64,000 nucleotides of DNA from NCBI RefSeq assembly GCF_050920415.1, contig NZ_CP169309.1. The stretch is one strand, 5' to 3'. Each line of letters opens with the position of its first letter. The first letter of the stretch is position 1. The notes under the pieces were generated by a model. The model made no database searches. It had not been told where the DNA came from and was given only the letters and a program-made list of their open reading frames with translations. This document shows positions 3,334-61,220 of the stretch, in pieces. Origin of the DNA: Escherichia coli. GTDB lineage: Bacteria; Pseudomonadota; Gammaproteobacteria; Enterobacterales; Enterobacteriaceae. A program made the translations under genes and the position numbers.

Positions 3334-3416
3334 CCCAGAGGTATTGATAGGTGAAGTCAACTTCGGGTTGAGCACATGAATTACACCAGCCTGCGCAGAT
3401 GCGCAGGTTTTTTTTT
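3334..3416 (+). ncRNA. omrB: OmrB small regulatory RNA
   Basis: Starts CCCAGAGGTATTGATAGGTGA, ends with hairpin CCTGCGCAGATGCGCAGG plus T9; shares 5' and 3' ends with the adjacent copy; lies between galR and aas, where I recall the OmrA/OmrB pair. Confidence 0.85.
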
Positions 3417-3530
3417 GCCGGCCATCAATCTGTAACAGTAACCGACAATTTACACACCTCGTTGCATTTCCCTTCATTCCTTTGCGTTTTCTCGCTGGCG
3501 AAGAGTCGTTGTGCAGACCACAATCAAGAT

Positions 3531-3618
3531 CCCAGAGGTATTGATTGGTGAGATTATTCGGTACGCTCTTCGTACCCTGTCTCTTGCACCAACCTGCGCG
3601 GATGCGCAGGTTTTTTTT
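3531..3618 (+). ncRNA. omrA: OmrA small regulatory RNA
   Basis: Starts CCCAGAGGTATTGATTGGTGA, ends with hairpin CCTGCGCGGATGCGCAGG plus T8; paralogous to the upstream copy. Confidence 0.85.
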
Positions 3619-26700: not shown

Positions 26701-27260
26701 CGGCTGTCCTCCAGGCACCTCTCAATGAAACGGGTGTTAGCCTGAATCAGCTTTCCGACCGCGATAAACAGGTGGAGATGGAGTTTTACCTGCCGATTAG
26801 TGAACCGCTCATCGCCAGCCAGCTTGATGCACTAATTCGCCAGTTTGATCCGCTATCCGCTGGCTGCCCGCCGCTGGAGTTCATGCAGGTACGCGGCATG
26901 TTAAAAGGCTTTATCGACCTGGTATTCCGCCACGAAGGGCGTTATTACCTGCTCGACTATAAATCCAACTGGCTGGGTGAAGACAGTTCGGCTTATACCC
27001 AACAGGCTATGGCAGCGGCGATGCAGGCACACCGCTATGATCTGCAATATCAGCTTTATACCCTGGCGCTGCATCGTTATCTGCGCCATCGCATTGCTGA
27101 TTACGACTATGATCGTCACTTTGGCGGCGTTATCTATCTGTTCCTGCGTGGCGTTGATAAAGAACATCCGCAACAAGGGATTTACACAACCCGACCCAAC
27201 GCTGGGTTGATTGACCTGATGGATGAGATGTTTGCCGGTATGACCCTGGAGGAGGCGTAA
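23718..27260 (+). CDS. recB: Exodeoxyribonuclease V beta subunit (helicase/nuclease)
   Basis: Start at ATG 23718 ([13 protein letters not shown]); Walker A GTGKT; overlaps ptrA stop. Confidence 0.96.
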
Positions 27261-29086
27261 TGAAATTGCAAAAGCAATTACTGGAAGCTGTGGAGCACAA
27301 ACAGCTACGCCCGCTGGATGTGCAATTTGCCCTGACCGTGGCGGGAGATGAACATCCTGCCGTCACCCTCGCGGCAGCCCTGTTAAGCCACGACGCCGGG
27401 GAAGGGCATGTCTGTTTACCGCTCTCACGACTGGAAAATAACGAGGAGTCACATCCGCTGTTAGCAACCTTCGTCAGCGAAATCGGTGAGTTACAAAATT
27501 GGGAAGAATGCTTGCTGGCTTCACAAGCGGTCAGCCGGGGAGATGAACCAACGCCGATGATCCTCTGTGGTGATCGTCTTTATTTGAATCGCATGTGGTG
27601 TAACGAGCGCACAGTGGCACGCTTTTTCAACGAAGTGAATCATGCCATTGAGGTTGATGAAGCTCTACTGGCGCAAACCCTGGACAAACTTTTTCCAGTA
27701 AGCGATGAAATTAACTGGCAAAAAGTGGCGGCGGCAGTGGCGCTGACGCGGCGGATCTCGGTGATTTCCGGCGGCCCTGGCACCGGTAAAACGACCACCG
27801 TAGCGAAGTTGTTGGCAGCGTTAATTCAAATGGCAGACGGCGAACGCTGCCGTATCCGCCTGGCTGCGCCAACGGGGAAAGCTGCCGCGCGCTTAACCGA
27901 ATCGCTTGGCAAAGCTTTGCGCCAGTTACCGCTGACCGATGAACAAAAGAAACGCATACCGGAAGACGCCAGCACCTTGCACCGTCTCCTGGGCGCGCAG
28001 CCAGGTAGCCAGCGTTTACGCCATCATGCCGGTAACCCGCTGCATCTTGATGTGCTGGTGGTGGATGAAGCGTCAATGATCGATCTCCCCATGATGTCGC
28101 GCCTGATCGATGCGTTGCCCGATCATGCCAGAGTGATCTTCCTCGGTGATCGCGATCAACTGGCCTCGGTTGAGGCTGGAGCTGTGCTGGGCGATATCTG
28201 CGCTTATGCCAACGCAGGCTTTACCGCCGAGCGTGCCGGGCAATTAAGTCGTCTGACGGGAAGTCATGTTCCGTCAGGAACTGGCACAGAAGCGGCATCT
28301 TTGCGCAACAGTCTCTGCCTGCTGCAAAAAAGCTATCGTTTCGGCAGCGATTCTGGCATTGGTCAGTTAGCTGCGGCGATCAACCGTGGTGATAAAACGG
28401 CAGTGAAAACCGTTTTTCAGCAGGATTTTACTGATATCGAAAAACGGCTTTTACAGAGCGGCGAAGACTATATTGCGATGCTTGAGGAGGCTCTTGCGGG
28501 TTACGGGCGTTATCTGGATCTGCTGCAAGCGCGTGCCGAGCCGGATTTAATCATTCAGGCGTTCAATGAGTACCAGCTTTTGTGCGCCCTGCGGGAAGGG
28601 CCGTTTGGCGTGGCTGGACTGAATGAGCGAATTGAGCAGTTTATGCAACAGAAGCGCAAAATTCATCGTCATCCGCACTCTCGTTGGTACGAAGGCCGAC
28701 CAGTGATGATTGCCCGTAATGACAGCGCGCTTGGGTTGTTTAATGGCGATATCGGTATTGCGCTGGATCGCGGGCAGGGGACGCGCGTCTGGTTTGCGAT
28801 GCCGGATGGCAATATTAAGTCTGTGCAACCGAGCCGCCTGCCAGAACACGAAACCACGTGGGCGATGACGGTACATAAATCGCAGGGATCGGAGTTTGAC
28901 CATGCGGCGTTGATTTTACCGAACCAACGCACGCCAGTTGTAACGCGAGAGCTGGTTTACACTGCGGTGACCCGCGCGCGTCGCCGTCTGTCGTTGTATG
29001 CCGATGAGCGCATATTAAGTGCGGCAATCGCCACTCGTACTGAGCGGCGCAGTGGTCTGGCGGCGTTGTTTAGTTCGCGGGAATAA
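27260..29086 (+). CDS. recD: Exodeoxyribonuclease V alpha subunit
   Basis: 608 aa; Walker [11 protein letters not shown]; start overlaps recB stop. Confidence 0.96.
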
Positions 29087-29089
29087 ACG

Positions 29090-29290
<201 letters not shown>

Positions 29291-29323
29291 ATTGCGCATG
29301 TCGCATCTGGCGATTTCCACCAC

Positions 29324-30655
29324 TTACCCCAAATCCGCCATCAACACTTTGGATTTACGCTGGTAGTTGTACAACTGCTTTTTGCTCTCGGGCAGTAAAT
29401 CAATATCCACCGGGGTAAATCCACGTTCCTGGAACCAGTGAATACTGCGCGTGGTCAGTACAAACAATTTGCTTAATCCGCTTTGCTTCGCCTGAGCGGC
29501 AATGCGCTCCAGCAAAACCTCGCCCCTTGATGAGCTGCGGTAATCCGGGTGAACGGCCACACAGGCCATTTCCCCAATCTTCTCTTCCGGGAACGGATAG
29601 AGTGCTGCGCAGGCAATAGTCGTGTTATCGCGCTGAATAATGGTGAATTTGTCGATTTCCATCTCCAGTTGCTCGCGAGAACGGCGTACCAGAATACCTT
29701 GCTGCTCCAGTGGGCGAATCAACTCCAGAATGCCGCCAATATCGTTGATTGTTGCGCGACGAATTTGCTCGGCGCTTTCCATCACAATCTGCGTACCGAT
29801 ACCGTCACGTGAGAACAACTCTTGCAACAGCGCGCCATCTTCCTGGTAACTAATTAAATGACAGCGACGTACGCCGCTGCGGCAGGCTTTCACCGCACCA
29901 CGCAAAAAGCGCACCGTACCGGAGTTGTAATCGCCTTTCTCTTCCTGAGCTTCTACCCGCGCTTGTGCTTCGTTAGGGAAAAGCTCGGAGACAATATCGC
30001 CGTCGTCATTAGTGACGCCCTGTGAAGAGCAAAAACCAATCATCTTTTCAGCTTTCAGTTTGATGGCCAGTTGAGTGGCGATCTCTTCCGAGGTCAGATT
30101 AAAGCTCTCGCCAGTGACTGAAACCGCGACCGGCCCCAGCAGCACTATCGCACCGCTGTCCAGTTGACGATGAATCGCATCTTCGTCAATCCGCCGGATA
30201 CGCCCGCTATGGCAGTAATCCACACCGTCATCCACGCCCAGCGGCTGGGCAATAATAAAATTGCCACTGACGACGTTGATATGCGCGCCCTGCAGCGGCG
30301 TGTTATTGAGACTCATCGACAGGCGAGCAGTAATGTCCAGTTGCAATGTTCCCGCAGCCTGCTTCACCAGTTCTAGTGTTTTGGCGTCGGTCACGCGTAT
30401 ATTTTTGTGATATAGCGGTTCGTGGTGATGCGCTGCCAGATTCGCATCGATCTGCGGGCGCGCTCCATAGACCACGACCAGACGGATGCCGAGGCTGTGC
30501 AGCAACCCGATATCATTAACGATACTGGAGAAATTCTCATGCTCAATGGCTTCACCGCCGAGCATGATGACAAACGTTTTTCCCCGGTGGGTATTGATAT
30601 AAGGAACCGAATGGCGGAATCCCTCGACCAACTCGGTTTTACGTTCCTTCACCAC
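29324..30655 (-). CDS. argA: N-acetylglutamate synthase
   Basis: 443 aa from GTG at 30655 ([12 protein letters not shown]); the track ORF extends in-frame upstream. Confidence 0.93.
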
Positions 30656-30670
30656 GGCACACCTCTTTGC

Positions 30671-30704
30671 ATGATTATTCGTAATTATTGTATTTTTATT
30701 CTGT
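30671..30704. promoter_or_regulatory. Candidate ArgR operator (ARG boxes) upstream of argA
   Basis: AT-rich dyad-like sequence TGATTATTCGTAATTATTGTATTTTTATTC just upstream of the argA start; resembles the ARG-box consensus from memory. Confidence 0.35.
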
Positions 30705-30885
30705 TTTTTCACTGGGTGCAAGTGCAAATTTTACGCATGAGCAACTTTTTTATCAGTAATGCCGTGAATATAAAAAGAATGTTTACCGTTTATTAGATGA
30801 CAGATTATGCGTCTTTCGCTAAAGTTTCCGGTCAAATTAGTCGTTTATTTGTTACACAGCTTAGATTTTTTTGCTCGGGAGATGC

Positions 30886-32139
30886 ATGTCGGGATCCAAC
30901 ACAGCAATCAGCCGTCGTCGTTTACTGCAAGGCGCGGGTGCCATGTGGCTATTGAGCGTAAGTCAGGTCAGTCTGGCTGCGGTCAGCCAGGTCGTGGCGG
31001 TGCGCGTCTGGCCTGCGTCCAGCTACACCCGTGTGACGGTAGAATCTAATCGTCAGCTGAAATATAAGCAGTTCGCGTTGAGTAACCCTGAACGCGTGGT
31101 GGTGGATATCGAAGATGTAAACCTGAACTCAGTGCTCAAGGGGATGGCGGCACAAATTCGTGCTGATGACCCGTTCATTAAGTCGGCGCGCGTCGGGCAG
31201 TTTGACCCGCAAACCGTGCGGATGGTTTTTGAGTTAAAGCAAAACGTAAAACCGCAGCTGTTTGCCCTTGCTCCGGTCGCCGGGTTTAAAGAGCGTCTGG
31301 TGATGGATCTCTATCCTGCCAATGCTCAGGACATGCAGGACCCGCTGCTGGCGCTGCTGGAGGATTACAATAAAGGCGATCTCGAAAAGCAGGTGCCGCC
31401 TGCGCAGAGTGGCCCGCAGCCAGGCAAAGCAGGGCGCGATCGTCCGATTGTCATTATGCTTGACCCTGGCCATGGCGGCGAAGACTCCGGTGCGGTGGGG
31501 AAATACAAAACGCGTGAAAAAGACGTGGTATTGCAAATTGCCCGCCGTTTGCGCTCTCTGATTGAGAAAGAGGGCAATATGAAAGTTTACATGACCCGTA
31601 ATGAAGACATCTTCATTCCGTTGCAAGTGCGCGTAGCAAAAGCACAGAAACAGCGTGCTGACTTGTTTGTCTCTATTCATGCCGATGCCTTTACCAGTCG
31701 CCAGCCGAGCGGTTCCTCTGTGTTTGCGCTCTCTACCAAAGGTGCAACCAGTACCGCGGCAAAATATCTGGCGCAAACTCAGAACGCCTCGGACTTGATT
31801 GGTGGCGTGAGTAAGAGCGGCGACCGTTATGTCGACCATACTATGTTCGATATGGTGCAGTCGCTGACCATTGCCGACAGTCTGAAGTTTGGTAAAGCTG
31901 TGTTGAATAAGCTCGGTAAAATCAACAAGCTGCATAAAAATCAGGTTGAACAAGCCGGGTTTGCCGTGCTGAAAGCGCCTGATATACCCTCTATTTTGGT
32001 CGAAACGGCGTTTATCAGTAACGTTGAGGAAGAACGTAAACTGAAAACGGCAACCTTCCAGCAGGAAGTTGCGGAATCAATCCTCGCAGGGATAAAAGCG
32101 TATTTTGCCGATGGGGCGACGCTGGCGAGAAGGGGATAA
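30886..32139 (+). CDS. amiC: N-acetylmuramoyl-L-alanine amidase AmiC (Tat-exported)
   Basis: Start at ATG 30886 ([19 protein letters not shown] twin-arginine signal); amidase_3 domain. Confidence 0.93.
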
Positions 32140-32310
32140 TGTTTTTATTTATTCAATGAATTTATATTTCGTTGAATAGATAATATTTACCTGAATATTA
32201 GACGTTGGTTTTGTGACTGATGTCGAATATTTGAATGTCGGCTTGAAAAATAAGCCGACCATCTCTTTAATTAAGCACAATTCCGTGTAATGTATATGCA
32301 TTAGTTAATC

Positions 32311-32340
32311 ATCTTGTAACTGTTAAATCAGGCAAGGCAA
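32311..32340 (+). promoter_or_regulatory. RAT (ribonucleic antiterminator) element of a BglG/SacY-type antitermination leader
   Basis: ATCTTGTAACTGTTAAATCAGGCAAGGCAA resembles the RAT consensus GGATTGTTACTG-N6-CAGGCAAAACC and overlaps the 5' arm of the following terminator. Confidence 0.65.
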
Positions 32341-32385
32341 TGTTTGAAGTAATTATTACTTCTGACGTGCCTTGCCTTTTTTTTT
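32329..32385 (+). terminator. Leader terminator partnered with the RAT
   Basis: 10 bp stem AGGCAAGGCA / TGCCTTGCCT with ~28 nt loop, followed by T9 (32377-32385), directly upstream of the antiterminator RBS GGAG. Confidence 0.7.
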
Positions 32386-32396
32386 GGAGCTATGGA

Positions 32397-33220
32397 ATGA
32401 TCATCGAAAAAGTCATGAACAATAATTGTGTACAGGCATCGATGAATGGACAGGAGGTTATCATTTCTGGGCCTGGCGTCGGTTACAAAAAAAATATGGA
32501 ATGTCGGTCCCTGAGCATCCGGCTAACCGGATTTTTTATGTCAGAAATGAACAAAAAAATAAACTCTACAAATTGATTGAGCATGTGGATATTGAGTATA
32601 TTTTTGTTGCCGAATAAATAGTGCAATATGCGGAGAACAATCTCGAAAAAAATCTCAATCCATCGCTACTATTGATTCTTGCTGATCATATTTCGAATGC
32701 AATATCCCGAGTCGCTTCAGGCATACAAATTAATAATGTTTTCCTTGATGAAATCAAAGCGTTGTACAAAGCAGAGTATGCGATAAGTCGCGATGCATTA
32801 ACTATCATTAATGAGCAATTCAGCGTTCAACTTCCTGATGATGAGATTGGTTTTATAGCATTGCATATTTTAAATAATTATGAGAATTCAGTTGATTATG
32901 AATCAGTACGGATTATTGAGTTGTCGCAAATAATCACGGGGCTTATTGAAGTTGTTTATAACAGAAAGGTGGACAGAAGTTCATTTAATTATTCCAGGTT
33001 CATGATACACCTTAAATATTTTTCAAGTCGCGTATTATGCAATGAAAAAATAAAACAGAAAGATATTGGTGATCTCTATGAACAGTTTCTTGAGAAAGAC
33101 ATTCTGTTACAGCGCGCAATTCATGAAATTGAAAGGTATTTGTACGCCACTTTTAAATATGAATTGATTTTGGAAGAAAAACTATATCTCTCTATTCGCA
33201 CCAAAGTATTAATGGACTGA
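32397..33220 (+). pseudogene. BglG/LicT-family transcription antiterminator (CAT-PRD1-PRD2), disrupted
   Basis: CAT domain MIIEKVMNNNCVQASMNGQEVIISGPGVGYKK in one frame; continuation ...RIFYVRNEQKNKLYKLIEHVDIEYIFVAE in the -1 frame after an A8 run (32486-32493); in-frame TAA at 32615-32617; PRD region continues to 33220 (FIALHIL, FMIHLKYF conserved His). Confidence 0.8.
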
Positions 33221-33251
33221 TTATATATAACATTTATATGAGATAACCCGC

Positions 33252-34832
33252 ATGAAACAAAAGAAAGCCTGGAGTTTTTTTCAGAGCCTGGGAAAGGCAT
33301 TTATGTATCCCATCGCTCTGCTAAGTGTATGTGGCATGATGTTAGGGCTAGGAAGTGGTTTAGCCAGCGATGATATGGCAAAATTAATTCCACTACTGGC
33401 TATTCCCGTAATTAAAACCATTCTTGATTTTATTGTTAGCCTTGGTTTGTTTGCCTTTGTCAATTTACCTGTATTGTTTGCGATAGCTATACCTCTGGGG
33501 TTATTAAAAGAGAAAGAGGATAAAGCCTATGGCGCTTTTTCTGGCTTAATTGGTTTCATGGCGATGCATCTGGGAACGAACTTTTATCTTAAACAACATG
33601 ACTTATTGGTCGCTGCTGATCAAATGTCGACACATGGGCAAACCATTATTCTGGGAATCCAGTCCTACAATACCAGTGTGTTGGGTGGGATTATAGCAGG
33701 ATTATTAGTCGCCAGTATGTATAAAAAGATCGTTAACTTACGTATTCCTGAATCATTAGGATTTTATAGTGGCCCACGCCTGGTGCCTATTATTACACTG
33801 ATTGTGATGAGTGGATTTGGTCTGATCATCCCTTTTATCTGGCCGCCATTTTTCAATCTTTTCATGCTCATTGGCCACTGGATTTCAACTTCCGGTCCTG
33901 TTGGCTATTTTTTCTATGCAGTCGCCGAACGCGTGACGATACCTTTTGGTTTAAATCACCTGGTGACGTCAGTTTTCCGCTTTACCCCCATCGGCGGATC
34001 GGCAGTGATCGGCGGAGAAGAGTATTATGGCACCCTGAACATGTTTATGGCGTACGTCAAAGAGAATGCGGTCATTCCGCTGGAGTTGGCGGGGAAAATG
34101 GAACAGGGCAAACTGATGATTCAGTATGGTCTGGCTGGTGCCGCGCTGGCGATGTATCGCACTGCTCATGCTCAAAACAGAAAAGCTATCAAAGCATTGC
34201 TTATTTCCGGGGTGCTTACAGTCATTATTGGCGGCGTCAGCGAACCGATTGAGTTTCTGTTCTTATTTGTCAGTCCACTGCTATTTGTCTTCCATGCTTT
34301 TATGAATGGATTCGCCAACATGGTCTTGCCATATATGGGCGTGAAGATGGGATTTACTGGCGATCTGATTCAATTTATTAGCTTTGGCGTATTGCGTGGC
34401 ACAAGAACAGGTTGGCCAATAGCGGTGTGTGTCGAAGTGGCCTATTTCTTTATTTATTACTTTGTGTTCCGTTGGACTATTCTCAAATTTAACCTGATGA
34501 CGGTAGGCCGTGAAGAGTCCAGTCCTGTCACGCTGAACGCTCATGAGGATACGGCTATAGCGGATATCCCAACGCTTGATAAATCAGAGCTGCAAGCAGC
34601 GGAGCAGATGGTTAAGGCACTTGGTGGTAAAGAGAATATTAAATCCCTGGATAATTGCGTAACTCGTTTACGTTTAACAATCGCAGATATGGGATTGATT
34701 GACGAGGCAGCAATAAAAAGAGCTGGCGGAATTGCGGTTGTTAAACTTGATCAAAATACCCTACAAGTCATTATCGGTACTAAAGTCATCGCCTTGCGTC
34801 GGGATATGGATAACTACATGGGGATATGCTGA
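33252..34832 (+). CDS. PTS sugar transporter EIICB, glucose/maltose family, no EIIA domain
   Basis: 526 aa; polytopic EIIC with SEPIEF motif; C-terminal EIIB with phospho-Cys motif NCVTRLR. Confidence 0.9.
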   Translation: MKQKKAWSFFQSLGKAFMYPIALLSVCGMMLGLGSGLASDDMAKLIPLLAIPVIKTILDFIVSLGLFAFVNLPVLFAIAIPLGLLKEKEDKAYGAFSGLIGFMAMHLGTNFYLKQHDLLVAADQMSTHGQTIILGIQSYNTSVLGGIIAGLLVASMYKKIVNLRIPESLGFYSGPRLVPIITLIVMSGFGLIIPFIWPPFFNLFMLIGHWISTSGPVGYFFYAVAERVTIPFGLNHLVTSVFRFTPIGGSAVIGGEEYYGTLNMFMAYVKENAVIPLELAGKMEQGKLMIQYGLAGAALAMYRTAHAQNRKAIKALLISGVLTVIIGGVSEPIEFLFLFVSPLLFVFHAFMNGFANMVLPYMGVKMGFTGDLIQFISFGVLRGTRTGWPIAVCVEVAYFFIYYFVFRWTILKFNLMTVGREESSPVTLNAHEDTAIADIPTLDKSELQAAEQMVKALGGKENIKSLDNCVTRLRLTIADMGLIDEAAIKRAGGIAVVKLDQNTLQVIIGTKVIALRRDMDNYMGIC

Positions 34833-36007
34833 TGGATGTTTTTAATACTCCTATTTCCCGCAAAGGAACATATTGTACCCAATGGGACTTTTGCGAGGAC
34901 AGATTTGGTGTAAAAGATGTATTACCATTCTCTATTTCAGATATGGATCTTCCGATACCGGAAGCTATCATCAGGGCATTAAGAAAACGTCTGGAACACC
35001 CGATTTTAGGGTACAGCCGTTGGCAGCATGATGACTATCTGAATGCGATAGTCAATTGGTATCATCAACAATATAAAACTGAAATCAAACCAGAATGGAT
35101 CACCTATAGCCCAAGCGTGATGTACTCCATTGCTAAAGCAATAGAGTTATTGACATCGCATGGTGATAATATTCTCGTTTTTACACCTGTCTATAATGCA
35201 TTTTTTGATATAATTAAACATAGCGAGAGAAATATTCTGACAGCCTCTTTGATTATAAAAAATGAGGGGGGCTACGCTATCAATTGGCAAGATTTTGATC
35301 TTAAGATTCAAAGCGCAAAGATGGTGTTATTATGTAATCCTCATAACCCGACAGGAACCGTCTGGTCGGAAGAAGAGCTGCATAAAATCGCTGCAAGCTG
35401 TGCAAGACATAATGTCTGGTTATGTTCAGATGAAATTCACAGTGATTTTGTTTTTAATCGTAGCTTTACATCTGCGCTTAAAATAAAAAAAGAAAAAGTA
35501 GTGGTGTTTAATTCGATATCGAAGACATTTAATGTTCCTGCGCTAACAGGATCGTATATGATTTCAACTGACGATAATTTTAATCATAAGTTCAGGACGA
35601 TATCAAGATATCGCGATTTTGTAAACTCCCCATCCGTACTGAATATAATTGCAACTATTATTGCCTATAACGAATGTGAGGGATGGTTAAAGTCATTAAA
35701 GGCACATATTGCCTCTAACATTCAATTCACCCAGCAGTATCTGAACGAAAATACTCCAGAATTGATTGTAAGGCCTGCTGATGGTTGCTATTTTTCGTGG
35801 ATAGATTGCTCTGCTATTGGTTATCCCTTTGATGAATTCTACAGTCGATTAATTCATGAAGGCAAAGTGGGCATTATGGCGGGGAATGTCTATGGAACGG
35901 AGGGGGAGGGCTACCTTCGTCTGAACCTGGCCTGCGGTCGAGAAAAATTATATATGGGGCTTACGCGTCTTGCGAGTGTAATTAAAAATATTAATCAAGG
36001 AAAATAA
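34832..36007 (+). CDS. MalY/PatB-like PLP-dependent C-S lyase (aminotransferase class I/II fold)
   Basis: N-terminus MDVFNTPISRKGTYCTQWD aligns with E. coli MalY MFDFSKVVDRHGTWCTQWD; SxSKTFN PLP-lysine region; alternative ATG at 34826 overlaps the PTS stop. Confidence 0.88.
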   Translation: MDVFNTPISRKGTYCTQWDFCEDRFGVKDVLPFSISDMDLPIPEAIIRALRKRLEHPILGYSRWQHDDYLNAIVNWYHQQYKTEIKPEWITYSPSVMYSIAKAIELLTSHGDNILVFTPVYNAFFDIIKHSERNILTASLIIKNEGGYAINWQDFDLKIQSAKMVLLCNPHNPTGTVWSEEELHKIAASCARHNVWLCSDEIHSDFVFNRSFTSALKIKKEKVVVFNSISKTFNVPALTGSYMISTDDNFNHKFRTISRYRDFVNSPSVLNIIATIIAYNECEGWLKSLKAHIASNIQFTQQYLNENTPELIVRPADGCYFSWIDCSAIGYPFDEFYSRLIHEGKVGIMAGNVYGTEGEGYLRLNLACGREKLYMGLTRLASVIKNINQGK

Positions 36008-36009
36008 AA

Positions 36010-36606
36010 ATGAACAGCACGGATCTTATCCATCTCATTAAACATTTTATGCGTAACGAACATAAAGCAGTTGAAGAAGTTATTGATTCCCCCCTTTCGG
36101 AGGTCGCAAATTTAATTAAAGTATTACAGTCTTGTCAGGGGAAAGTTGTTTTTATTGGTGTCGGTAAGTCCGGTATTATTGCCCGAAAACTCGCCGCAAC
36201 ATTTGCCAGCACTGGAACTCCCTCGTTTTTTGTTCACGGTACTGAAGCCGTACACGGCGATCTTGGGATGGTGGCGAAAGATGATGTTGTTATTCTTATT
36301 TCAAACAGTGGTGAGACGACAGAAATCCTGGCAACACTACCTAGTCTGAAAAAAATGGGTAATTATTTGATCTCCTTTACCCGCAGTCATCGCTCATCGC
36401 TTGCGATAAGTTGTGATTTATCCGTTGAAATTCCCGTAAAAAGTGAGGCGGATAATTTAGGTTTAGCGCCGTCATGCTCATCAACAGTCGTTCTGGTTGT
36501 TGGTGATGCGGTGGCGCTTGCGCTCTCCGAATTGAAAAAGTTTACTTGTGCTGATTTCGGCTTATATCATCCAGGAGGTGCGCTCGGTATTAAAGCAAAC
36601 TCATAA
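36010..36606 (+). CDS. SIS-domain-only sugar-phosphate isomerase, KdsD/GutQ-like without CBS domains
   Basis: 198 aa; GVGKSGIIARKLAATFASTGTPSFFVHGTEAVHGDLGMV and SNSGET closely resemble the KdsD SIS domain; ORF ends where CBS domains would begin. Confidence 0.88.
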   Translation: MNSTDLIHLIKHFMRNEHKAVEEVIDSPLSEVANLIKVLQSCQGKVVFIGVGKSGIIARKLAATFASTGTPSFFVHGTEAVHGDLGMVAKDDVVILISNSGETTEILATLPSLKKMGNYLISFTRSHRSSLAISCDLSVEIPVKSEADNLGLAPSCSSTVVLVVGDAVALALSELKKFTCADFGLYHPGGALGIKANS

Positions 36607-36676
36607 TTTTAGAATATAAAACAGTAACCGGTCACGCCATCTTTTGGGGTGGCGTTCATTGATGTGAGTGTCAGCT

Positions 36677-37624
36677 ATGAAAAACGTTCTGGTCACCGTT
36701 CCCAGCTTTTCAGCGCGTTGTGTTTCTGCCAGCAAGCTGCTAAGAGAAAATCATTTTAACCTTATTATCAAGAATAATGTGGAGCATCTGGTTAAATCAG
36801 AATCCACAGTATTACGAGAATCTATTTGCGCAGTCATTGCCGGAAAAGATTGTTATCAAGCGGATACGTTATCGCGACTACCAGGAGTGAAAATAATATC
36901 GAGATTCGGGACAGGGATTGATAATATTGATCTTCATACGGCTCGACAATCAGGTATTGTGGTCAATAATGCTGTTGGGATTAATTCAAATGCAGTCGCG
37001 GAATTTATCATTGGTCTTATTTTTGCGAGCATGAGAAATATCCCCGGTAGCTATCATGCGATGCAAAATGGTTATTGGGGCGAGTCGCATGGCTGCGAGT
37101 TACAAGGTAAACGTATTGGCCTGCTTGGCTACGGCAATATTGGCAAAACACTGGCGAAAAGGTTATCTGGTTTTGATGTTGAGCTTTTAGCTTTTGACAA
37201 ACAACCCGATTTCCAGGCCGCAGGCAAAGATGGAGTTCAGTTCGTATCAATTGAAGATATCTTTATGCAGTCTCATGTCATCATCGTTCTTTTGCCATTT
37301 TCTCCGGAGCTGGAGAACTTCATTAGTCATAAATATTTGTCGATGATGCGCAATGGTGCTCTTATCATCAACGCCGCAAGGGGAAAGTTGCTGGATGAGA
37401 GTGCTTTACTTCAGGTAATTGAAGAACGAAATGTTTTTGCAGCACTGGATGTGTTTAGCTCTGAACCGCTAGCGCAATTTAGCCCATTGCTACATGCCAG
37501 GAATATCATTACAACGCCGCATATTGCGGCCGCCACCGTTGAGTCATACCAGCAAACCGGGATATACGTTGCCAGGTCGATAATAGATTTCTTTGCAGGA
37601 AGGGAGATAAAAAACGTGCTGTGA
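36677..37624 (+). CDS. NAD-dependent D-isomer-specific 2-hydroxyacid dehydrogenase
   Basis: About 315 aa; NAD-binding GLLGYGNIGKT and catalytic-region TPHIAAAT; start could alternatively be GTG at 36668. Confidence 0.85.
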   Translation: MKNVLVTVPSFSARCVSASKLLRENHFNLIIKNNVEHLVKSESTVLRESICAVIAGKDCYQADTLSRLPGVKIISRFGTGIDNIDLHTARQSGIVVNNAVGINSNAVAEFIIGLIFASMRNIPGSYHAMQNGYWGESHGCELQGKRIGLLGYGNIGKTLAKRLSGFDVELLAFDKQPDFQAAGKDGVQFVSIEDIFMQSHVIIVLLPFSPELENFISHKYLSMMRNGALIINAARGKLLDESALLQVIEERNVFAALDVFSSEPLAQFSPLLHARNIITTPHIAAATVESYQQTGIYVARSIIDFFAGREIKNVL

Positions 37625-37650
37625 GTTCAGCTAAGGAAGATTTCAGGTAC

Positions 37651-37683
37651 AAAAAAACCGCAATCTGTGAAACATATTGCGGT
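37651..37683 (-). terminator. Rho-independent terminator of the tRNA-fMet operon
   Basis: On the minus strand, stem ACCGCAAT / ATTGCGGT followed by T7, immediately 3' of the last tRNA copy. Confidence 0.75.
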
Positions 37684-37702
37684 TTATCAGCATCATAAGT
37701 GT

Positions 37703-37779
<77 letters not shown>

Positions 37780-37812
37780 TCACCGTACTGCTTTACTTCA
37801 TCAAATTTTGAT

Positions 37813-37889
<77 letters not shown>

Positions 37890-37922
37890 TCACCGTACTG
37901 CTTTACTTCATCAAATTTTAAT

Positions 37923-37999
<77 letters not shown>

Positions 38000-38032
38000 T
38001 CACCGTACTGCTTTACTTCATCAAATTTTAAT

Positions 38033-38109
<77 letters not shown>

Positions 38110-38317
38110 TCCGTGGATGCGCACTATACTCCGCTCGCGTTTTCATGCAACCTTTTTTTTACCCAGATCACGGATTTGGTATGATTTTGAGCAAAAACAA
38201 ATCACTAAAGCCTGTTTTTTGTGCAAAATTTGCGTCAGGGAGAGGCTGCTCATTTCATTAAACGCGGCGGTTTGTTATCTTCATTGCGCCTTATTTTTTA
38301 AACTGAAGAAGAGAACA

Positions 38318-39415
38318 ATGAAAGGACGTTGGGTAAAGTACCTTCTTATGGGCACGGTTGTGGCAATGCTTGCCGCCTGCTCTTCCAAACCAACCGATCG
38401 CGGACAGCAATATAAAGACGGGAAATTTACCCAGCCTTTCTCTCTGGTAAACCAGCCAGATGCCGTTGGCGCGCCAATTAACGCCGGTGATTTTGCCGAG
38501 CAAATTAACCATATCCGTACTTCGTCACCGCGTCTGTATGGCAACCAGAGTAATGTTTATAATGCGGTGCAGGAGTGGCTACGCGCAGGCGGTGATACCC
38601 GCAATATGCGTCAGTTCGGCATTGACGCCTGGCAGATGGAAGGTGCCGACAACTATGGCAACGTGCAGTTTACGGGCTATTACACGCCTGTCATTCAGGC
38701 GCGCCATACCCGTCAGGGCGAGTTCCAGTATCCTATTTACCGTATGCCGCCAAAACGTGGTCGTCTGCCGTCTCGTGCTGAGATCTACGCGGGAGCATTG
38801 AGCGATAAATACATCCTCGCTTACAGCAACTCTCTGATGGATAACTTCATTATGGATGTGCAGGGTAGCGGGTATATCGATTTTGGTGATGGCAGTCCGC
38901 TTAACTTCTTCAGCTATGCCGGAAAGAATGGTCATGCCTATCGCAGTATTGGTAAGGTGCTGATTGACCGTGGCGAAGTGAAAAAAGAAGATATGTCGAT
39001 GCAGGCGATTCGTCACTGGGGTGAAACACACAGTGAAGCCGAGGTTCGCGAGCTGCTGGAACAGAACCCGTCTTTCGTCTTCTTTAAACCGCAATCTTTT
39101 GCTCCGGTGAAAGGGGCAAGTGCGGTGCCGCTGGTTGGTCGCGCTTCAGTTGCGTCCGATCGTTCCATTATCCCGCCTGGTACAACTTTACTGGCAGAAG
39201 TGCCGCTGCTGGATAATAACGGCAAATTTAACGGTCAGTACGAACTGCGGCTGATGGTGGCGCTGGATGTCGGTGGTGCAATCAAAGGCCAACACTTCGA
39301 TATTTATCAAGGTATCGGGCCGGAAGCCGGACACCGCGCAGGTTGGTACAACCACTATGGACGTGTTTGGGTGCTGAAAACCGCCCCGGGCGCAGGTAAC
39401 GTCTTTAGCGGCTGA
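38318..39415 (+). CDS. mltA: Membrane-bound lytic murein transglycosylase A (lipoprotein)
   Basis: Start at ATG 38318 (MKGRWVKYLLMGTVVAMLAACSS lipobox); the 38036 track ORF is an extension through the tRNA genes. Confidence 0.93.
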   Translation: MKGRWVKYLLMGTVVAMLAACSSKPTDRGQQYKDGKFTQPFSLVNQPDAVGAPINAGDFAEQINHIRTSSPRLYGNQSNVYNAVQEWLRAGGDTRNMRQFGIDAWQMEGADNYGNVQFTGYYTPVIQARHTRQGEFQYPIYRMPPKRGRLPSRAEIYAGALSDKYILAYSNSLMDNFIMDVQGSGYIDFGDGSPLNFFSYAGKNGHAYRSIGKVLIDRGEVKKEDMSMQAIRHWGETHSEAEVRELLEQNPSFVFFKPQSFAPVKGASAVPLVGRASVASDRSIIPPGTTLLAEVPLLDNNGKFNGQYELRLMVALDVGGAIKGQHFDIYQGIGPEAGHRAGWYNHYGRVWVLKTAPGAGNVFSG

Positions 39416-39491
39416 TGTGTTATTCTGTATACCGTTTTGACGGATACGACAGGGTGAGGGATAACCTCGCCCTTTTTAATTCTGAGGTGCT

Positions 39492-40298
39492 ATGTCTGTG
39501 GTAATTAGTGATGCATGGCGTCAGCGTTTTGGTGGCACTGCGCGTCTGTATGGTGAAAAAGCGTTGCAACTGTTTGCTGATGCGCATATTTGTGTGGTCG
39601 GTATCGGTGGCGTCGGTTCCTGGGCGGCGGAAGCGCTGGCGCGTACGGGGATTGGCGCAATCACACTTATCGATATGGATGATGTGTGCGTCACTAATAC
39701 CAATCGGCAAATTCACGCGCTGCGAGATAACGTCGGGCTGGCCAAAGCGGAAGTAATGGCGGAGCGTATTCGCCAGATTAACCCGGAGTGCCGTGTAACG
39801 GTGGTAGATGACTTCGTGACGCCGGATAACGTAGCGCAATATATGAGTGCCGGTTATTCGTACGTGATTGATGCCATTGATAGTGTGCGACCCAAAGCGG
39901 CGCTGATTGCTTATTGTCGGCGCAATAAAATCCCTCTGGTCACGACTGGTGGTGCTGGTGGGCAGATTGATCCGACGCAGATTCAGGTTACCGATCTGGC
40001 GAAAACGATTCAGGACCCTCTGGCGGCGAAGTTGCGCGAGCGCCTGAAAAGCGATTTTGGCGTAGTGAAAAACAGCAAAGGTAAGCTCGGCGTGGATTGC
40101 GTGTTCTCTACCGAAGCGCTGGTGTACCCGCAGTCAGACGGTACGGTGTGCGCGATGAAAGCCACGGCAGAAGGGCCGAAGCGGATGGATTGTGCATCTG
40201 GATTTGGCGCGGCGACGATGGTGACCGCCACCTTTGGTTTTGTTGCGGTTTCTCATGCGTTGAGGAAGATGATGGTGAAAGCGGCGCGTCAGGGGTAA
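39492..40298 (+). CDS. tcdA: tRNA threonylcarbamoyladenosine dehydratase (ThiF/MoeB-like E1)
   Basis: 268 aa; Rossmann motif VVGIGGVGSWAAEALARTG. Confidence 0.9.
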   Translation: MSVVISDAWRQRFGGTARLYGEKALQLFADAHICVVGIGGVGSWAAEALARTGIGAITLIDMDDVCVTNTNRQIHALRDNVGLAKAEVMAERIRQINPECRVTVVDDFVTPDNVAQYMSAGYSYVIDAIDSVRPKAALIAYCRRNKIPLVTTGGAGGQIDPTQIQVTDLAKTIQDPLAAKLRERLKSDFGVVKNSKGKLGVDCVFSTEALVYPQSDGTVCAMKATAEGPKRMDCASGFGAATMVTATFGFVAVSHALRKMMVKAARQG

Positions 40299-40348
40299 AC
40301 AATCAGGTCGGATGCGACGTGAACGTCTTATCCGACCTGGTTTTGCGC

Positions 40349-40792
40349 TTAACCCTGCTTCGCCGCCGCGATAATCGCCTCGCTTAACGCATTCAACCCC
40401 TGACTGCGAGAGGCGCTAAGTTGCCCACGCAATCCCAGCTCATCAAACAATGCCAGCGGCGACTGTGCCTGCAATTCGGCGGCGGTTTTCCCCTCAACGG
40501 CAGTCAACAACACCGCCAGCAGGCCGCGCACAATGCGTCCTTCGCTGTCGCCAAAGAAATGCATCGTGCCGTTTTCAGCCACGGTATATCCCAGCCAGAC
40601 GCGGTTTTCGCATCCGGCGATCTCTTTAGCCTGCGCTTTTAACTCGTCTGGCAAAGCTGGAAGCTGTTTCCCCAACATAATTAGCTGACGATATTTGTCT
40701 TCCCATTGAGTCAACGGCGCGAAAGTTTCGTGTAACGTCTTTACGGTAACGGTTGTGCCGAACGGATGTCCGGCGAATTGCGGGTTCGTCAT
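40349..40792 (-). CDS. csdE: Sulfur acceptor protein (SufE-like)
   Basis: 147 aa; recognised as CsdE; adjacent to csdA. Confidence 0.9.
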
Positions 40793-41997
40793 TAATCCAC
40801 CAATAATTCCAGCGCACGGTCAACGGCATTCACCAGCGCATCCACATCACTCTTTGTATTATATGGCGCAAAAGAGGCGCGCAGTGTGCCGGTTACGCCT
40901 AATTCTGCCAGTAGCGGCTGAGCGCAATGCTGCCCGGCCCGCAGGGCAATGCCGTACTCCGCCAGCAGCGTCACCATATCGCTGTGATGAACGCCAGCAA
41001 AATCAAAGGCTAGCAGGCTGGAATCCTGGCTGCGGAATGAACGAAAGCCTGGACGTTTTGCCAGCGCCTCTTCTGCAATCGTCGCCAGGCTGCGACTCCA
41101 GCTTTCTGCCTGGTTGATATCGTAATCTGCCAGCCATTCCAGCGCCGCGCTTAACCCAATTACGCCAGCGACATTTGGCGTTCCTGCTTCCAGTTTCCAC
41201 GGCGCAGATTGAGTGATGAAGCCGTCAAAACTCACTTCGTGAACCATTTTGCCGCCGCCCAGCCAGGGCGACATTGCTTCCAGCAGTTCTGGTTTGCCGT
41301 AAAGTACGCCTATCCCTGTCGGGCCATACAGTTTGTGACCAGAGAAAGCGTAAAAATCAATATCCAGTTGCTGAACATCCGCGGGGAAATGCACCGCCCC
41401 CTGAGCACCATCAACCATCACCACCATCCCGGCTGAATGAGCAAAGGTAATCGCTCGTGCCAGATCCGGGCAACCGCCAGTGACGTTAGACATCTGGCCC
41501 AACGCCAGAATCCGACTATGGGGAGTAATCAGTTCAGGCAACAAATCGATATCTGGCAACCGCTGCGCATTAAGCGGCAATTTCACCACTTTGGCTCCGG
41601 TTTGTTGGGCGACCATCAGCCAGGGGACGAGGTTGGCGTGATGCTCTGCCACACTGACAATAATTTCATCGCCCGGTTGCAGACGCGGACGGGCATAGCA
41701 TTGCGCCACCATGTTGATGGATTCAGTGGTGCCACGCGTCCAGACGATAGTTTTGTCATCTGGTGCATTCAGTAATTGCGCCACTTTTTCCCGTGCAGCT
41801 TCGTAACGCGCGGTCAGGCGTTGGGCCTCGGCAAACTGACTACGATGGACGTTTCCGGCGCTCAGGCTGTAAAACTGTCGGGTTGCTTCAACCACGACTT
41901 CAGGTTTAAGCGCGGTCGCGGCACTGTCGAGATAGACGCCCGCATCCTGTAGCGCGGGAAACTGGGCGCGAAATTGCGCGGGATTAAAAACGTTCAT
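40792..41997 (-). CDS. csdA: Cysteine desulfurase / sulfinate desulfinase
   Basis: 401 aa from ATG at 41997 ([13 protein letters not shown]); PLP class V aminotransferase; track ORF has an upstream extension. Confidence 0.92.
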
Positions 41998-42188
41998 GGT
42001 ACTCCTCGGCTTGATGCACCGATCGTGACGCAAAATTCACTTTGATACAAGGAGAGTGCTAACCATCAGAATTATCTGGATATCCTGACGAAGCCGCGTA
42101 AGTAACATATGCTAAATAGTGTTAGGCGTTAATTTTAGCCTGTTAATCAATACTATTAAGATTTATTAATCGCTTTAAGGAGAAGATG

Positions 42189-42432: not shown

Positions 42433-42638
42433 AAAAAAAAGCACCGCAATTAGGCGGTGCTACATTAATCACTATGGACAGACAGGGTAAATGTACAGGA
42501 AGTGAAAAAAGGTAGCTTTGCTACCATGGTCTGAATCGCAGACCAATTGCAAACACAACAACACAACATCACAACCGTAAGCCAAAAGTTCACCAGAACA
42601 CGCATTCCGATAAAACTTTTCGTTCCGGCTCAGGAAGT
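42433..42638 (-). ncRNA. gcvB: GcvB small RNA
   Basis: Minus-strand sequence begins ACTTCCTGAGCCGGAACGAAAAG, contains the GT-rich region GTTGTGATGTTGTGTTGTTGTGTTTGCAATTGG, ends with terminator GCACCGCCTAATTGCGGTGC plus T8; divergent from gcvA. Confidence 0.88.
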
Positions 42639-60809: not shown

Positions 60810-61177
60810 GTCGACAGGGAGTCAGACAACGAAGTGAACATCAGGATGATGACACTTCTGAAGGACACACCAGGAGGGTGTTTCAGGGAAAGGCTTCTGG
60901 ATGAAGCGAAGAGGATGACGCAGGACGCGTTAAAGGACACCTCCAGGATGGAGAATGAGAACCGGTCAGGATGATTCGGTGGGTCAGGAAGGCCAGGGAC
61001 ACTTCAGGATGAAGTATCACATCGGGGTGGTGTGAGCAGGAAGCAATAGTTCAGGATGAACGATTGGCCGCAAGGCCAGAGGAAAAGTTGTCAAGGATGA
61101 GCAGGGAGCAACAAAAGTAGCTGGAATGCTGCGAAACGAACCGGGAGCACTGTGAATACAGTGCTCCCTTTTTTTAT
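60810..61177 (+). ncRNA. csrB: CsrB sRNA (CsrA-sequestering)
   Basis: Begins GTCGACAGGGAGTCAGACAACGAAGTGAACATCAGGATGATGACAC; at least eight CAGGATG/AGGATGA-type motifs counted by eye; ends with hairpin GGGAGCACTGTGAATACAGTGCTCCC plus T7; between syd and yqcC. Confidence 0.9.
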
Positions 61178-61220
61178 TCCTGCTATCCTTCGCGGCAGTT
61201 TTTCTTATTGAGGTTGCTTT

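What the first reader, a model, noticed from the sequence alone, without database searches (positions are those of the whole stretch)
37625..37702. Island boundary coincides with the tRNA operon terminator and lacks integration scars
The last island gene ends at 37624 and the tRNA-fMet terminator (strong on the minus strand: stem plus T7) starts about 25 bp later, so the acquired block abuts the tRNA 3' flank as classic genomic islands do. I could not find an integrase, a phage or IS remnant, or a direct repeat of the tRNA 3' end at the amiC-proximal edge (32140-32310). That suggests an old, degraded or recombination-mediated acquisition rather than a recent mobile element.
Basis: seen in the sequence. 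Interest (0 to 1): 0.4.

Follow-up and report, generated by a model that had tools for sequence, protein, structure and literature searches.

The report
Scarless arm of known metV island

Summary
The last block gene ends at 37624. A hairpin plus U7 on the minus strand lies at 37651-37685, and tRNA-fMet starts at 37703. No integrase, IS element or copy of the tRNA 3' end lies at the amiC edge.

The block (32140-37702) matches the PRD/PTS/PatB/SIS/dehydrogenase genes next to amiC in CFT073, published as c3405-c3410 of PAI-CFT073-metV.

One correction is needed. The terminator is not the resident tRNA terminator. K-12, Salmonella, Cronobacter, Kosakonia and Enterobacter share a different one (ACACCC-N4-GGGTGT plus T7) in a short amiC-tRNA spacer. 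The empty site is therefore ancestral, the block is an insertion, and "deleted in K-12" is refuted. Homology to empty sites is lost exactly at the amiC stop codon and at the tRNA CCA end.

Four haplotypes exist among 5,426 complete E. coli genomes:
- empty, about 64%;
- block only, as here, 11%;
- block plus T6SS module, 20%;
- T6SS only, 4.6%.

The T6SS module is flanked by 15-nt repeats of the tRNA 3' end, and the block lies outside them. The block is old: it sits at the same site in E. whittamii and Atlantibacter hermannii, and the three genus lineages are about equally diverged. This is a known kind of feature and of low interest.

The parts
30886..32139 (+). amiC, the core gene that forms the left border. 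Homology to empty-site genomes ends at its stop codon, which is TAA here and TGA in K-12.
   Evidence: The protein is identical to K-12 AmiC despite 79 nucleotide differences.
32140..32339 (+). amiC-proximal non-coding edge of the block. It holds no tRNA-like repeat. A hairpin at 32237-32259 may be the amiC terminator. Homology to the Atlantibacter and Citrobacter blocks begins near 32250.
32325..32385 (+). Leader hairpin plus U9 upstream of the operon, a terminator of the kind read through by BglG/LicT-type antiterminators. It is conserved across the three genera.
   Evidence: dG -32.4 kcal/mol, z -5.2
32397..33220 (+). PRD-domain antiterminator of the LicT/BglG family (pafR-like). It is a pseudogene here, frameshifted with an internal stop, and intact in B2 strains, A. 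hermannii and Citrobacter.
33252..34832 (+). MalX-like PTS EIICB transporter
34826..36007 (+). PatB/MalY-family C-S lyase
   Evidence: (TIGR04350, 368.7 bits against a cut-off of 340),
36010..36606 (+). SIS-domain protein, KpsF/GutQ-like but without CBS domains
36668..37624 (+). D-2-hydroxyacid dehydrogenase, annotated as phosphoglycerate dehydrogenase. It is the last gene of the block.
37625..37702 (-). The finding itself: the spacer between the convergent block operon and the tRNA operon. It belongs to the inserted segment and is not homologous to the K-12/Salmonella spacer.
37651..37685 (-). Intrinsic-terminator-like hairpin (stem AACCGCAAU/AUUGCGGUU, 11-nt loop) plus U7 for the tRNA-fMet operon. 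This is the 'CCGCAA-type' terminator found wherever foreign DNA sits at metV.
37703..38109 (-). Four tandem tRNA-fMet genes with a 110-bp period. The CCA end of the last copy, at 37703, is the right border of the variable segment.
38319..39415 (+). mltA, a core gene beyond the tRNA operon promoter region

Best explanation
Bases 37625-37702 form the terminator spacer between two convergent transcription units. One is a five-gene operon: a pafR-like antiterminator, a MalX-like PTS EIICB, a PatB lyase, an SIS protein and a 2-hydroxyacid dehydrogenase. The other is a four-copy tRNA-fMet operon. The hairpin plus U7 on the minus strand ends the tRNA transcript.

The whole interval from the amiC stop codon to the tRNA CCA end (32140-37702) is foreign DNA. 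It replaced the ancestral enterobacterial amiC-tRNA spacer of 70-110 bp, including that spacer's own terminator. It is the amiC-proximal arm of the known metV genomic island (PAI-CFT073-metV, genes c3405-c3410), here without the T6SS module.

Most likely history (inferred): an element entered long ago at, or just after, the 3' end of the last tRNA-fMet gene and brought its own terminator. Its far-side junction and any recombinase were later deleted up to the amiC stop codon. Since then the block has behaved as a present/absent allele that moves between E. coli lineages by homologous recombination in the flanking core genes. A second element, the T6SS module, later used the same tRNA end in some lineages and left 15-nt repeats. 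The window shows the block-only state.

Shown directly: the anatomy, the exact homology breaks, the ancestral empty state, the four haplotypes and their frequencies, the repeats around the T6SS module, and the age of the block.

Inferred: recombinase-mediated entry, the order of events, and spread by homologous recombination.
For: Identity of the block:
- It carries the same five genes, in the same order and next to amiC, as ATCC 25922 and CFT073, where a T6SS cluster follows.
- c3405-c3410 are published as the maltose/glucose-type PTS set inside PAI-CFT073-metV. pafR is published as a regulator of the metV island.

The empty state is ancestral:
- K-12 has 73 bp between amiC and the tRNA, with terminator ACACCC-GTTA-GGGTGT plus T7.
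- The same terminator adjoins tRNA-fMet in Salmonella, Cronobacter, Kosakonia and Enterobacter (alignment).
- That terminator is absent from the window.

Exact breaks:
- Alignments lose homology to K-12 at the amiC stop codon and at the tRNA CCA end.

The site is used by a repeat-flanked element:
- In ATCC 25922 and E. coli W, the T6SS module lies between the intact tRNA and a 15-nt copy of its 3' end (TTGGTTGCGGGGGCC), and it has the same outer end (ACAGTCAAGAGG...) in both backgrounds.
- The module's tRNA-proximal end carries a terminator paralogous to the one at 37651-37685.

Frequencies in 5,426 complete genomes:
- block present in 1,683;
- block-only junction in 595;
- block/repeat/T6SS junction in 1,087;
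- K-12 spacer/repeat/T6SS junction in 250;
- K-12-type junction in 3,734, a count that includes the previous class.

Age:
- The block is at the same site, without T6SS, in E. whittamii, E69 and A. hermannii.
- Its nucleotide divergence tracks that of the flanks.
- Proteins from the three genera are about equidistant.
- A. hermannii keeps the left part of the ancestral spacer between amiC and the block (z about 6). This places the entry point between the old terminator and the tRNA.

Recombinational spread:
- Window positions of about 26,000-42,000 are 92-96% identical to K-12, B2 and W, against 96-99% outside, with a sharp right edge near 42,000.
- amiC differs at 79-88 sites from K-12, ATCC 25922 and W, whereas K-12 and ATCC 25922 differ from each other at only 29.

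No current mobility:
- The block is absent from the plasmid and phage collections.
- The junction motif has no viral match. All 48 metagenomic occurrences are the known tRNA-T6SS or repeat-block junctions.
Against: - No integrase was found anywhere at this locus, not even in the repeat-flanked T6SS module. Recombinase-mediated entry is therefore inferred only from geometry.
- In two Citrobacter species the same block lies next to tRNA-Asp (aspV), but distal to the native aspV terminator. That terminator is shared with E. coli aspV flanks. Entry there did not cross the tRNA 3' end.
- The tRNA-like stretch after the ancestral-spacer remnant in A. hermannii (16 of 22 matches) is not significant (61-166 of 1,000 shuffles score as well).
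- The raised divergence of the flanks is noisy. It also holds against block-bearing B2 strains, so it shows a divergent local haplotype rather than co-transfer with the block specifically.
- E. albertii, E. fergusonii, E. marmotae and E. ruysiae could not be inspected directly. Their absence from the one genome scan rests on six peptide patterns.
Confidence: 0.65

Rival explanations
1. The window haplotype is secondary. It arose from the composite island (block plus T6SS module) when the T6SS module was lost by recombination between the repeated tRNA 3' end and terminator copies. That loss would restore a block that directly abuts the tRNA.
For: - In ATCC 25922 the two copies are identical over 41 nt (GGCCCCCGCAACCAATTTATTAGAATGCTGACAAACCGCAA), enough for such a deletion.
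- 65% of block-bearing genomes carry the T6SS module.
- The window's terminator loop resembles the block-side copy. Both this scenario and the main one predict that.
Against: - The block-only arrangement is the phylogenetically wider one. It occurs in E. whittamii, E69 and A. hermannii, all without T6SS.
- The T6SS module also occurs on the empty K-12-type background (E. coli W and 250 genomes), so the two modules are independent.
- No remnant of the T6SS module lies in 37625-37702.
Confidence: 0.2
2. The block never entered through the tRNA. It was placed in the intergenic gap by illegitimate recombination or replacement. Its position next to tRNA genes only reflects that gaps between convergent genes downstream of tRNA operons tolerate insertions.
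For: - In Citrobacter the block lies beyond the native aspV terminator, with no tRNA-derived repeat.
- No integrase or att repeat bounds the block in any of seven genomes examined.
- The conserved part of the block ends at the dehydrogenase stop codon when compared across genera.
Against: - In Escherichia and Atlantibacter the ancestral terminator has been separated from the tRNA, and a different terminator sits against the CCA end.
- That new terminator is paralogous to the one carried at the tRNA-proximal end of the repeat-flanked T6SS module. This links it to elements that do target the tRNA end.
Confidence: 0.25
3. The block is ancestral to Escherichia, and K-12-type strains lost it by deletion.
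For: - It lies at the same site in E. whittamii, E69 and A. hermannii.
- Its divergence is similar to that of the flanking core genes.
Against: - The K-12 spacer and its terminator are orthologous to those of Salmonella, Cronobacter, Kosakonia and Enterobacter.
- A deletion cannot recreate that sequence.
- The K-12 spacer shows no similarity to either end of the block.
Confidence: 0.03

Closest known systems
PAI-CFT073-metV / metV genomic island of extraintestinal pathogenic E. coli (genes c3385-c3410; the PTS set c3405-c3410 including pafR)
   Same: - Same chromosomal slot, between the 3' end of the tRNA-fMet operon and amiC.
- Same five genes in the same order and orientation (literature).
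- 90-98% nucleotide identity gene by gene to ATCC 25922, whose five block proteins carry the same accessions as those of CFT073.
   Different: - The T6SS module of about 36 kb and the 15-nt tRNA repeat that separates it from the PTS genes are absent here.
- The antiterminator gene is a pseudogene.
- The local haplotype is 5-10% diverged from the B2 version.
- There are four tRNA copies instead of three.
E. coli W 'ETSS2' T6SS cluster downstream of metV
   Same: - Same tRNA hot spot.
- Its tRNA-proximal end carries a CCGCAA-type terminator paralogous to 37651-37685.
   Different: W has the T6SS module on the ancestral K-12-type spacer and lacks the PTS block. The window has the reverse combination.
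Classical tRNA-linked genomic islands with a P4-type integrase and att repeats (for example islands at pheV, leuX, selC and aspV)
   Same: - Position at a tRNA 3' end.
- Low GC.
- Strain-variable presence.
- metV is a listed hot spot.
   Different: No integrase, no flanking repeat and no mobility genes. The cargo is a single metabolic operon. The block is at least as old as the genus.

Membership tests
metV genomic island (PAI-CFT073-metV), PTS arm c3405-c3410 | Lies between amiC and the 3' end of the tRNA-fMet (metZWV) operon | tested here: met
   CFT073 and ATCC 25922 have the same layout.
metV genomic island (PAI-CFT073-metV), PTS arm c3405-c3410 | Orthologous gene set: PRD antiterminator, EIICB, PatB/MalY, SIS, dehydrogenase | tested here: met
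   Each gene is 90-98% identical in nucleotides to ATCC 25922. The ATCC 25922 proteins are identical to those of CFT073. The link from old locus tags to these genes rests and on position.
metV genomic island (PAI-CFT073-metV), complete form | T6SS cluster between the tRNA and the PTS genes | tested here: not met
   Only 78 bp separate the dehydrogenase gene from the tRNA. The window matches the block-only junction class, 595 of 5,426 genomes.
Integrase-type tRNA genomic island | Adjacent to the 3' end of a tRNA gene, with homology to the empty site lost at or inside the tRNA end | tested here: met
Integrase-type tRNA genomic island | Tyrosine-recombinase (integrase) gene or remnant | tested here: not met
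   Five metabolic or regulatory genes fill the block. The non-coding remainder is 278 bp.
Integrase-type tRNA genomic island | Direct repeat of the tRNA 3' end at the distal border | tested here: not met
   for the window; for Citrobacter and A. hermannii. The repeat exists only around the separate T6SS module in other genomes.
Integrase-type tRNA genomic island | Atypical base composition and strain-variable presence | tested here: met
   35-45% GC against 50-55% in the flanks. Present in 31% of complete E. coli genomes.
Intrinsic (Rho-independent) terminator | GC-containing hairpin directly followed by a U-run on the transcribed strand | tested here: met
   The stem is conserved and the loop is variable across Escherichia and Atlantibacter.
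Intrinsic (Rho-independent) terminator | Transcripts actually end there | not testable with these tools
   Needs Term-seq or 3' RACE.

The most novel reading that the evidence does not exclude
The PTS block and the T6SS module share a conserved tRNA-proximal end: the 15-nt tRNA-fMet core, then ATTTATTAGAAT, then a CCGCAA hairpin. This could be the attachment arm of a family of integrase-less cassettes that are moved into tRNA 3' flanks in trans by a recombinase encoded elsewhere. The block would then be a satellite cassette that has been captured at metV (Escherichia, Atlantibacter) and near aspV (Citrobacter), rather than a dead remnant.
Probability: 0.08. Interest if true: 0.5.

Novelty: already known. 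Interest (0 to 1): 0.2.

Why it matters
The practical value is small. The analysis shows that this "island without scars" is the published PTS/pafR arm of the metV island. It fixes the island's true borders at the amiC stop codon and the tRNA CCA end. It also shows that the terminator next to the tRNA came in with the foreign DNA.

The locus resolves cleanly into two independent modules and four haplotypes, whose frequencies were measured in 5,426 genomes. That makes it a tidy teaching case of tandem accretion at a tRNA hot spot followed by erosion of the scars. It may also serve as a marker for lineage typing. It opens no new mechanism.

Tried and rejected
- Search for a copy of the tRNA 3' end at the amiC edge. 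None was found with up to 3 mismatches in 15 nt. Permissive local alignment of the left spacers of the window, E69 and E. whittamii to the tRNA scored at chance level. A TTGGTT hexamer near 32204 was rejected: it is not conserved in the other Escherichia haplotypes (alignment) and is expected by chance.
- The tRNA-like stretch in A. hermannii (16 of 22 matches) is not significant. I report it only as suggestive.
- Looking for an intact progenitor element with the junction motif CCCCGCAACCAATTTATTAGAAT. There were 0 hits in viral contigs. The 48 metagenomic hits were all the known tRNA-T6SS or repeat-block junctions.
- The block is not on plasmids or phages. Only paralog-level fragments matched.
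- Counting four-copy tRNA arrays by BLAST coverage failed, because overlapping pieces inflate coverage.
- Kluyvera and Klebsiella gave no usable outgroup site, because their amiC is not next to the tRNA.
- The primary papers (Lloyd et al. 2009; Baum et al. 2014) are not in the held library. Their content is used only through papers that cite them. My recollection that c3405-10 mutants are attenuated in the urinary tract is memory, not a checked source.

Full report
**What is in the window.**
The window is E. coli and is 100% identical across this region to strain MFDS1022581. The local order is as follows.
- argA on the minus strand.
- amiC at 30886-32139 on the plus strand.
- A 5.56-kb block at 32140-37702.
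- Four tandem tRNA-fMet genes on the minus strand at 37703-38109.
- mltA at 38319-39415.

The block holds five genes:
- a LicT/BglG-family PRD antiterminator, which is frameshifted here;
- a MalX-like PTS EIICB;
- a PatB/MalY C-S lyase;
- a KpsF/GutQ-like SIS protein;
- a D-2-hydroxyacid dehydrogenase that ends at 37624.

A strong leader hairpin plus U9 at 32325-32385 precedes the operon and is conserved across genera.

- On the minus strand, 37625-37702 folds into a 9-10 bp stem (AACCGCAAU/AUUGCGGUU) with an 11-nt loop, followed by U7. This structure lies about 27 bp after the dehydrogenase stop codon and 18 bp before the tRNA 3' end.
- No copy of the tRNA 3' end is present at the amiC edge, even with 3 mismatches in 15 nt.
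- Repeat finding gives nothing beyond the tRNA array.
- No integrase or IS element is annotated or possible in the 278 bp of non-coding sequence.
- The block is AT-rich, 35-45% GC against 50-55% in the flanks.

**What the block is.**
ATCC 25922 and CFT073 (phylogroup B2) carry the same five genes next to amiC, followed by a T6SS cluster and then the tRNAs. This is the published PAI-CFT073-metV. Its genes c3405-c3410 are described there as a maltose/glucose-type PTS set restricted to UPEC, E2348/69 and SMS-3-5. The PRD regulator of the metV island is published as PafR. The window therefore holds the amiC-side arm of a known island, without the T6SS module.

**Where the true borders lie.**
K-12 has only 73 bp between the amiC stop codon and the tRNA. 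That spacer contains an amiC terminator and a tRNA terminator, ACACCC-GTTA-GGGTGT plus T7. The window shares nothing with this spacer. Similarity stops at the amiC stop codon (TAA here, TGA in K-12) and resumes at the first base of the tRNA, and the ACACCC terminator is absent from the window. The terminator at 37651-37685 is therefore part of the variable segment.

**Which state is ancestral.**
I fetched the amiC neighbourhood from other genera. Salmonella, Cronobacter, Kosakonia and Enterobacter all have a short spacer. In each, the tRNA-adjacent part is AAAAAAACACCC-N4-GGGTGT, the K-12 type (alignment). The empty site is therefore ancestral for the family, and the block is an insertion.

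**Scars at the locus in other genomes.**
- In ATCC 25922 the block's terminator is followed by TTGGTTGCGGGGGCC, a 15-nt copy of the tRNA 3' end, and then by the T6SS module.
- At the other end of the module, the intact tRNA is followed by a second, paralogous CCGCAA-type terminator. The two copies are identical over 41 nt.
- E. coli W has the same T6SS end and the same 15-nt repeat, but placed on the ancestral K-12-type spacer and without the block (literature).

The T6SS module is thus a repeat-flanked tRNA island with no integrase annotated. The PTS block lies outside its repeats.

**Haplotype frequencies.**
Junction-specific searches of 5,426 complete E. coli genomes gave these counts:
- block present, 1,683;
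- block directly abutting the tRNA, as here, 595;
- block/repeat/T6SS, 1,087;
- K-12 spacer/repeat/T6SS, 250;
- K-12-type junction, 3,734, a count that includes the previous class because 83% of the query is covered.

This leaves about 3,484 empty sites. The four classes add up to 5,416.

**Age and distribution of the block.**
A scan of one genome per species found the block in only five enterobacterial representatives.
- E. whittamii and a divergent lineage deposited as E. coli E69 have it at the same site, without T6SS.
- Atlantibacter hermannii has amiC, block, three tRNA-fMet genes and mltA in that order.
- Two Citrobacter species have it next to tRNA-Asp (aspV).

The scan recovered relatives down to 68% identity. 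Absence from the E. albertii, E. fergusonii, E. marmotae, E. ruysiae and Salmonella representatives is therefore probably real, but it was not checked directly.

Nucleotide identity of the block genes tracks that of the flanks:

| Compared with the window | Flanks | Block |
|---|---|---|
| ATCC 25922 | 93-95% | 90-98% |
| E69 | 91-94% | 87-92% |
| A. hermannii | 76-81% | 68-77% |

The Escherichia, Atlantibacter and Citrobacter proteins are about equidistant: EIICB 84-87% and PatB 68-73%. Beyond these genera, the nearest named PatB relatives are at about 50% identity, from an uncultured Enterobacter sequence and from Clostridioides and Terrisporobacter; a few unnamed metagenomic sequences reach 52-61%. 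The block has been in each genus for a long time.

**A remnant in Atlantibacter.**
Between amiC and the block, A. hermannii retains, in the right orientation, the left part of the ancestral spacer. The retained sequence is CACACGTCAGAAATGAAAAAACAC, up to the start of the old terminator (z about 6 against Kosakonia and Enterobacter). The insert therefore entered between the old terminator and the tRNA. A following stretch resembles the tRNA T-arm region (16 of 22 matches) but is not significant. The Escherichia haplotypes have lost this remnant entirely.

**A caution from Citrobacter.**
In Citrobacter the block ends at the dehydrogenase stop codon and is followed by the native aspV terminator, which is shared with E. 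coli aspV flanks. That insertion did not cross the tRNA end. No tRNA-Asp repeat is present either.

**Evidence for spread by homologous recombination.**
- Window positions of about 26,000-42,000 are 92-96% identical to K-12, ATCC 25922 and W, against 96-99% elsewhere, with a sharp edge near 42,000.
- amiC differs from K-12, ATCC 25922 and W at 79-88 sites, all synonymous. K-12 and ATCC 25922 differ from each other at only 29 sites.
- This strain therefore carries a deeply divergent local haplotype of about 16 kb that includes the block. About 109 genomes share it at 99% identity or more.

**No sign of present mobility.**
- The block is absent from 72,556 plasmids and 50,697 phage records; only paralog-level fragments match.
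- The junction motif has no viral match.
- Its 48 metagenomic occurrences are all the two known junctions.

**Conclusion.**
It needs three corrections.
- The terminator came in with the foreign DNA.
- The border is the tRNA CCA end.
- The block is the already described PTS/pafR arm of the metV island, at a hot spot where a second module does carry tRNA-derived repeats.

The way the block first entered remains inferred. This is a known kind of feature and of low interest.

Noticed in passing
window 37703-38109: There are four tandem tRNA-fMet genes with a 110-bp period. K-12, ATCC 25922, W, E69 and A. hermannii have three. Cronobacter and Kosakonia have two, and the Salmonella contig has one. 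Among listed E. coli hits, only the identical strain showed four copies.
   Followed up: partly
window 32397-33220 (ORFs 32340-32576 and 32621-33220): The pafR-like PRD antiterminator is frameshifted with an internal stop in this strain. It is intact in B2 strains, A. hermannii and Citrobacter. The leader terminator it would read through (32325-32385) is intact, so the operon may be locked off here.
   Followed up: partly
window 30886-32139 and about 26000-42000: amiC carries 79-88 nucleotide differences from K-12, B2 and W but not one amino-acid change. A tract of about 16 kb around the block is roughly twice as diverged as the rest of the window, with a sharp right edge near 42,000. This looks like an imported, deeply divergent haplotype.
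   Followed up: partly
L003:26208-26222 with L004:8420-8480 (ATCC 25922); L016:39268-39282 with L016:2260-2330 (E. coli W): The T6SS module at metV is flanked by a 15-nt direct repeat of the tRNA-fMet 3' end. It has the same outer end on two different backgrounds and has no annotated integrase. In ATCC 25922 the repeat extends to 41 identical nt.
   Followed up: yes
L006:7370-12852 and L008 (Citrobacter sp. MGH106 and FP75): The same five-gene block lies next to tRNA-Asp (aspV), between a small periplasmic-protein gene and the native aspV terminator. This is a second tRNA-flank location in another genus.
   Followed up: yes
window 29090-29340: The recD-argA spacer is about 180 bp longer than in K-12. 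It contains REP-like palindromes and a duplicated fragment of the argA 3' end (CTTACCCTAAATCCGCCA near 29170, repeated at 29324).
   Followed up: no
L007:11856-12254: In A. hermannii the dehydrogenase gene of the block appears truncated, with only a 132-aa ORF. This suggests decay of the operon in that genome.
   Followed up: no
proteins P0002-P0009; L005:3709-5482: In the E69-type allele class, some E. coli and Shigella genomes encode a single fusion protein of 550-592 aa joining the PatB lyase and the SIS domain.
   Followed up: no
window 3334-3618, 42433-42638, 60819-61178: Ordinary core sRNA genes are found at their expected places: OmrA/OmrB, GcvB and CsrB.
   Followed up: no
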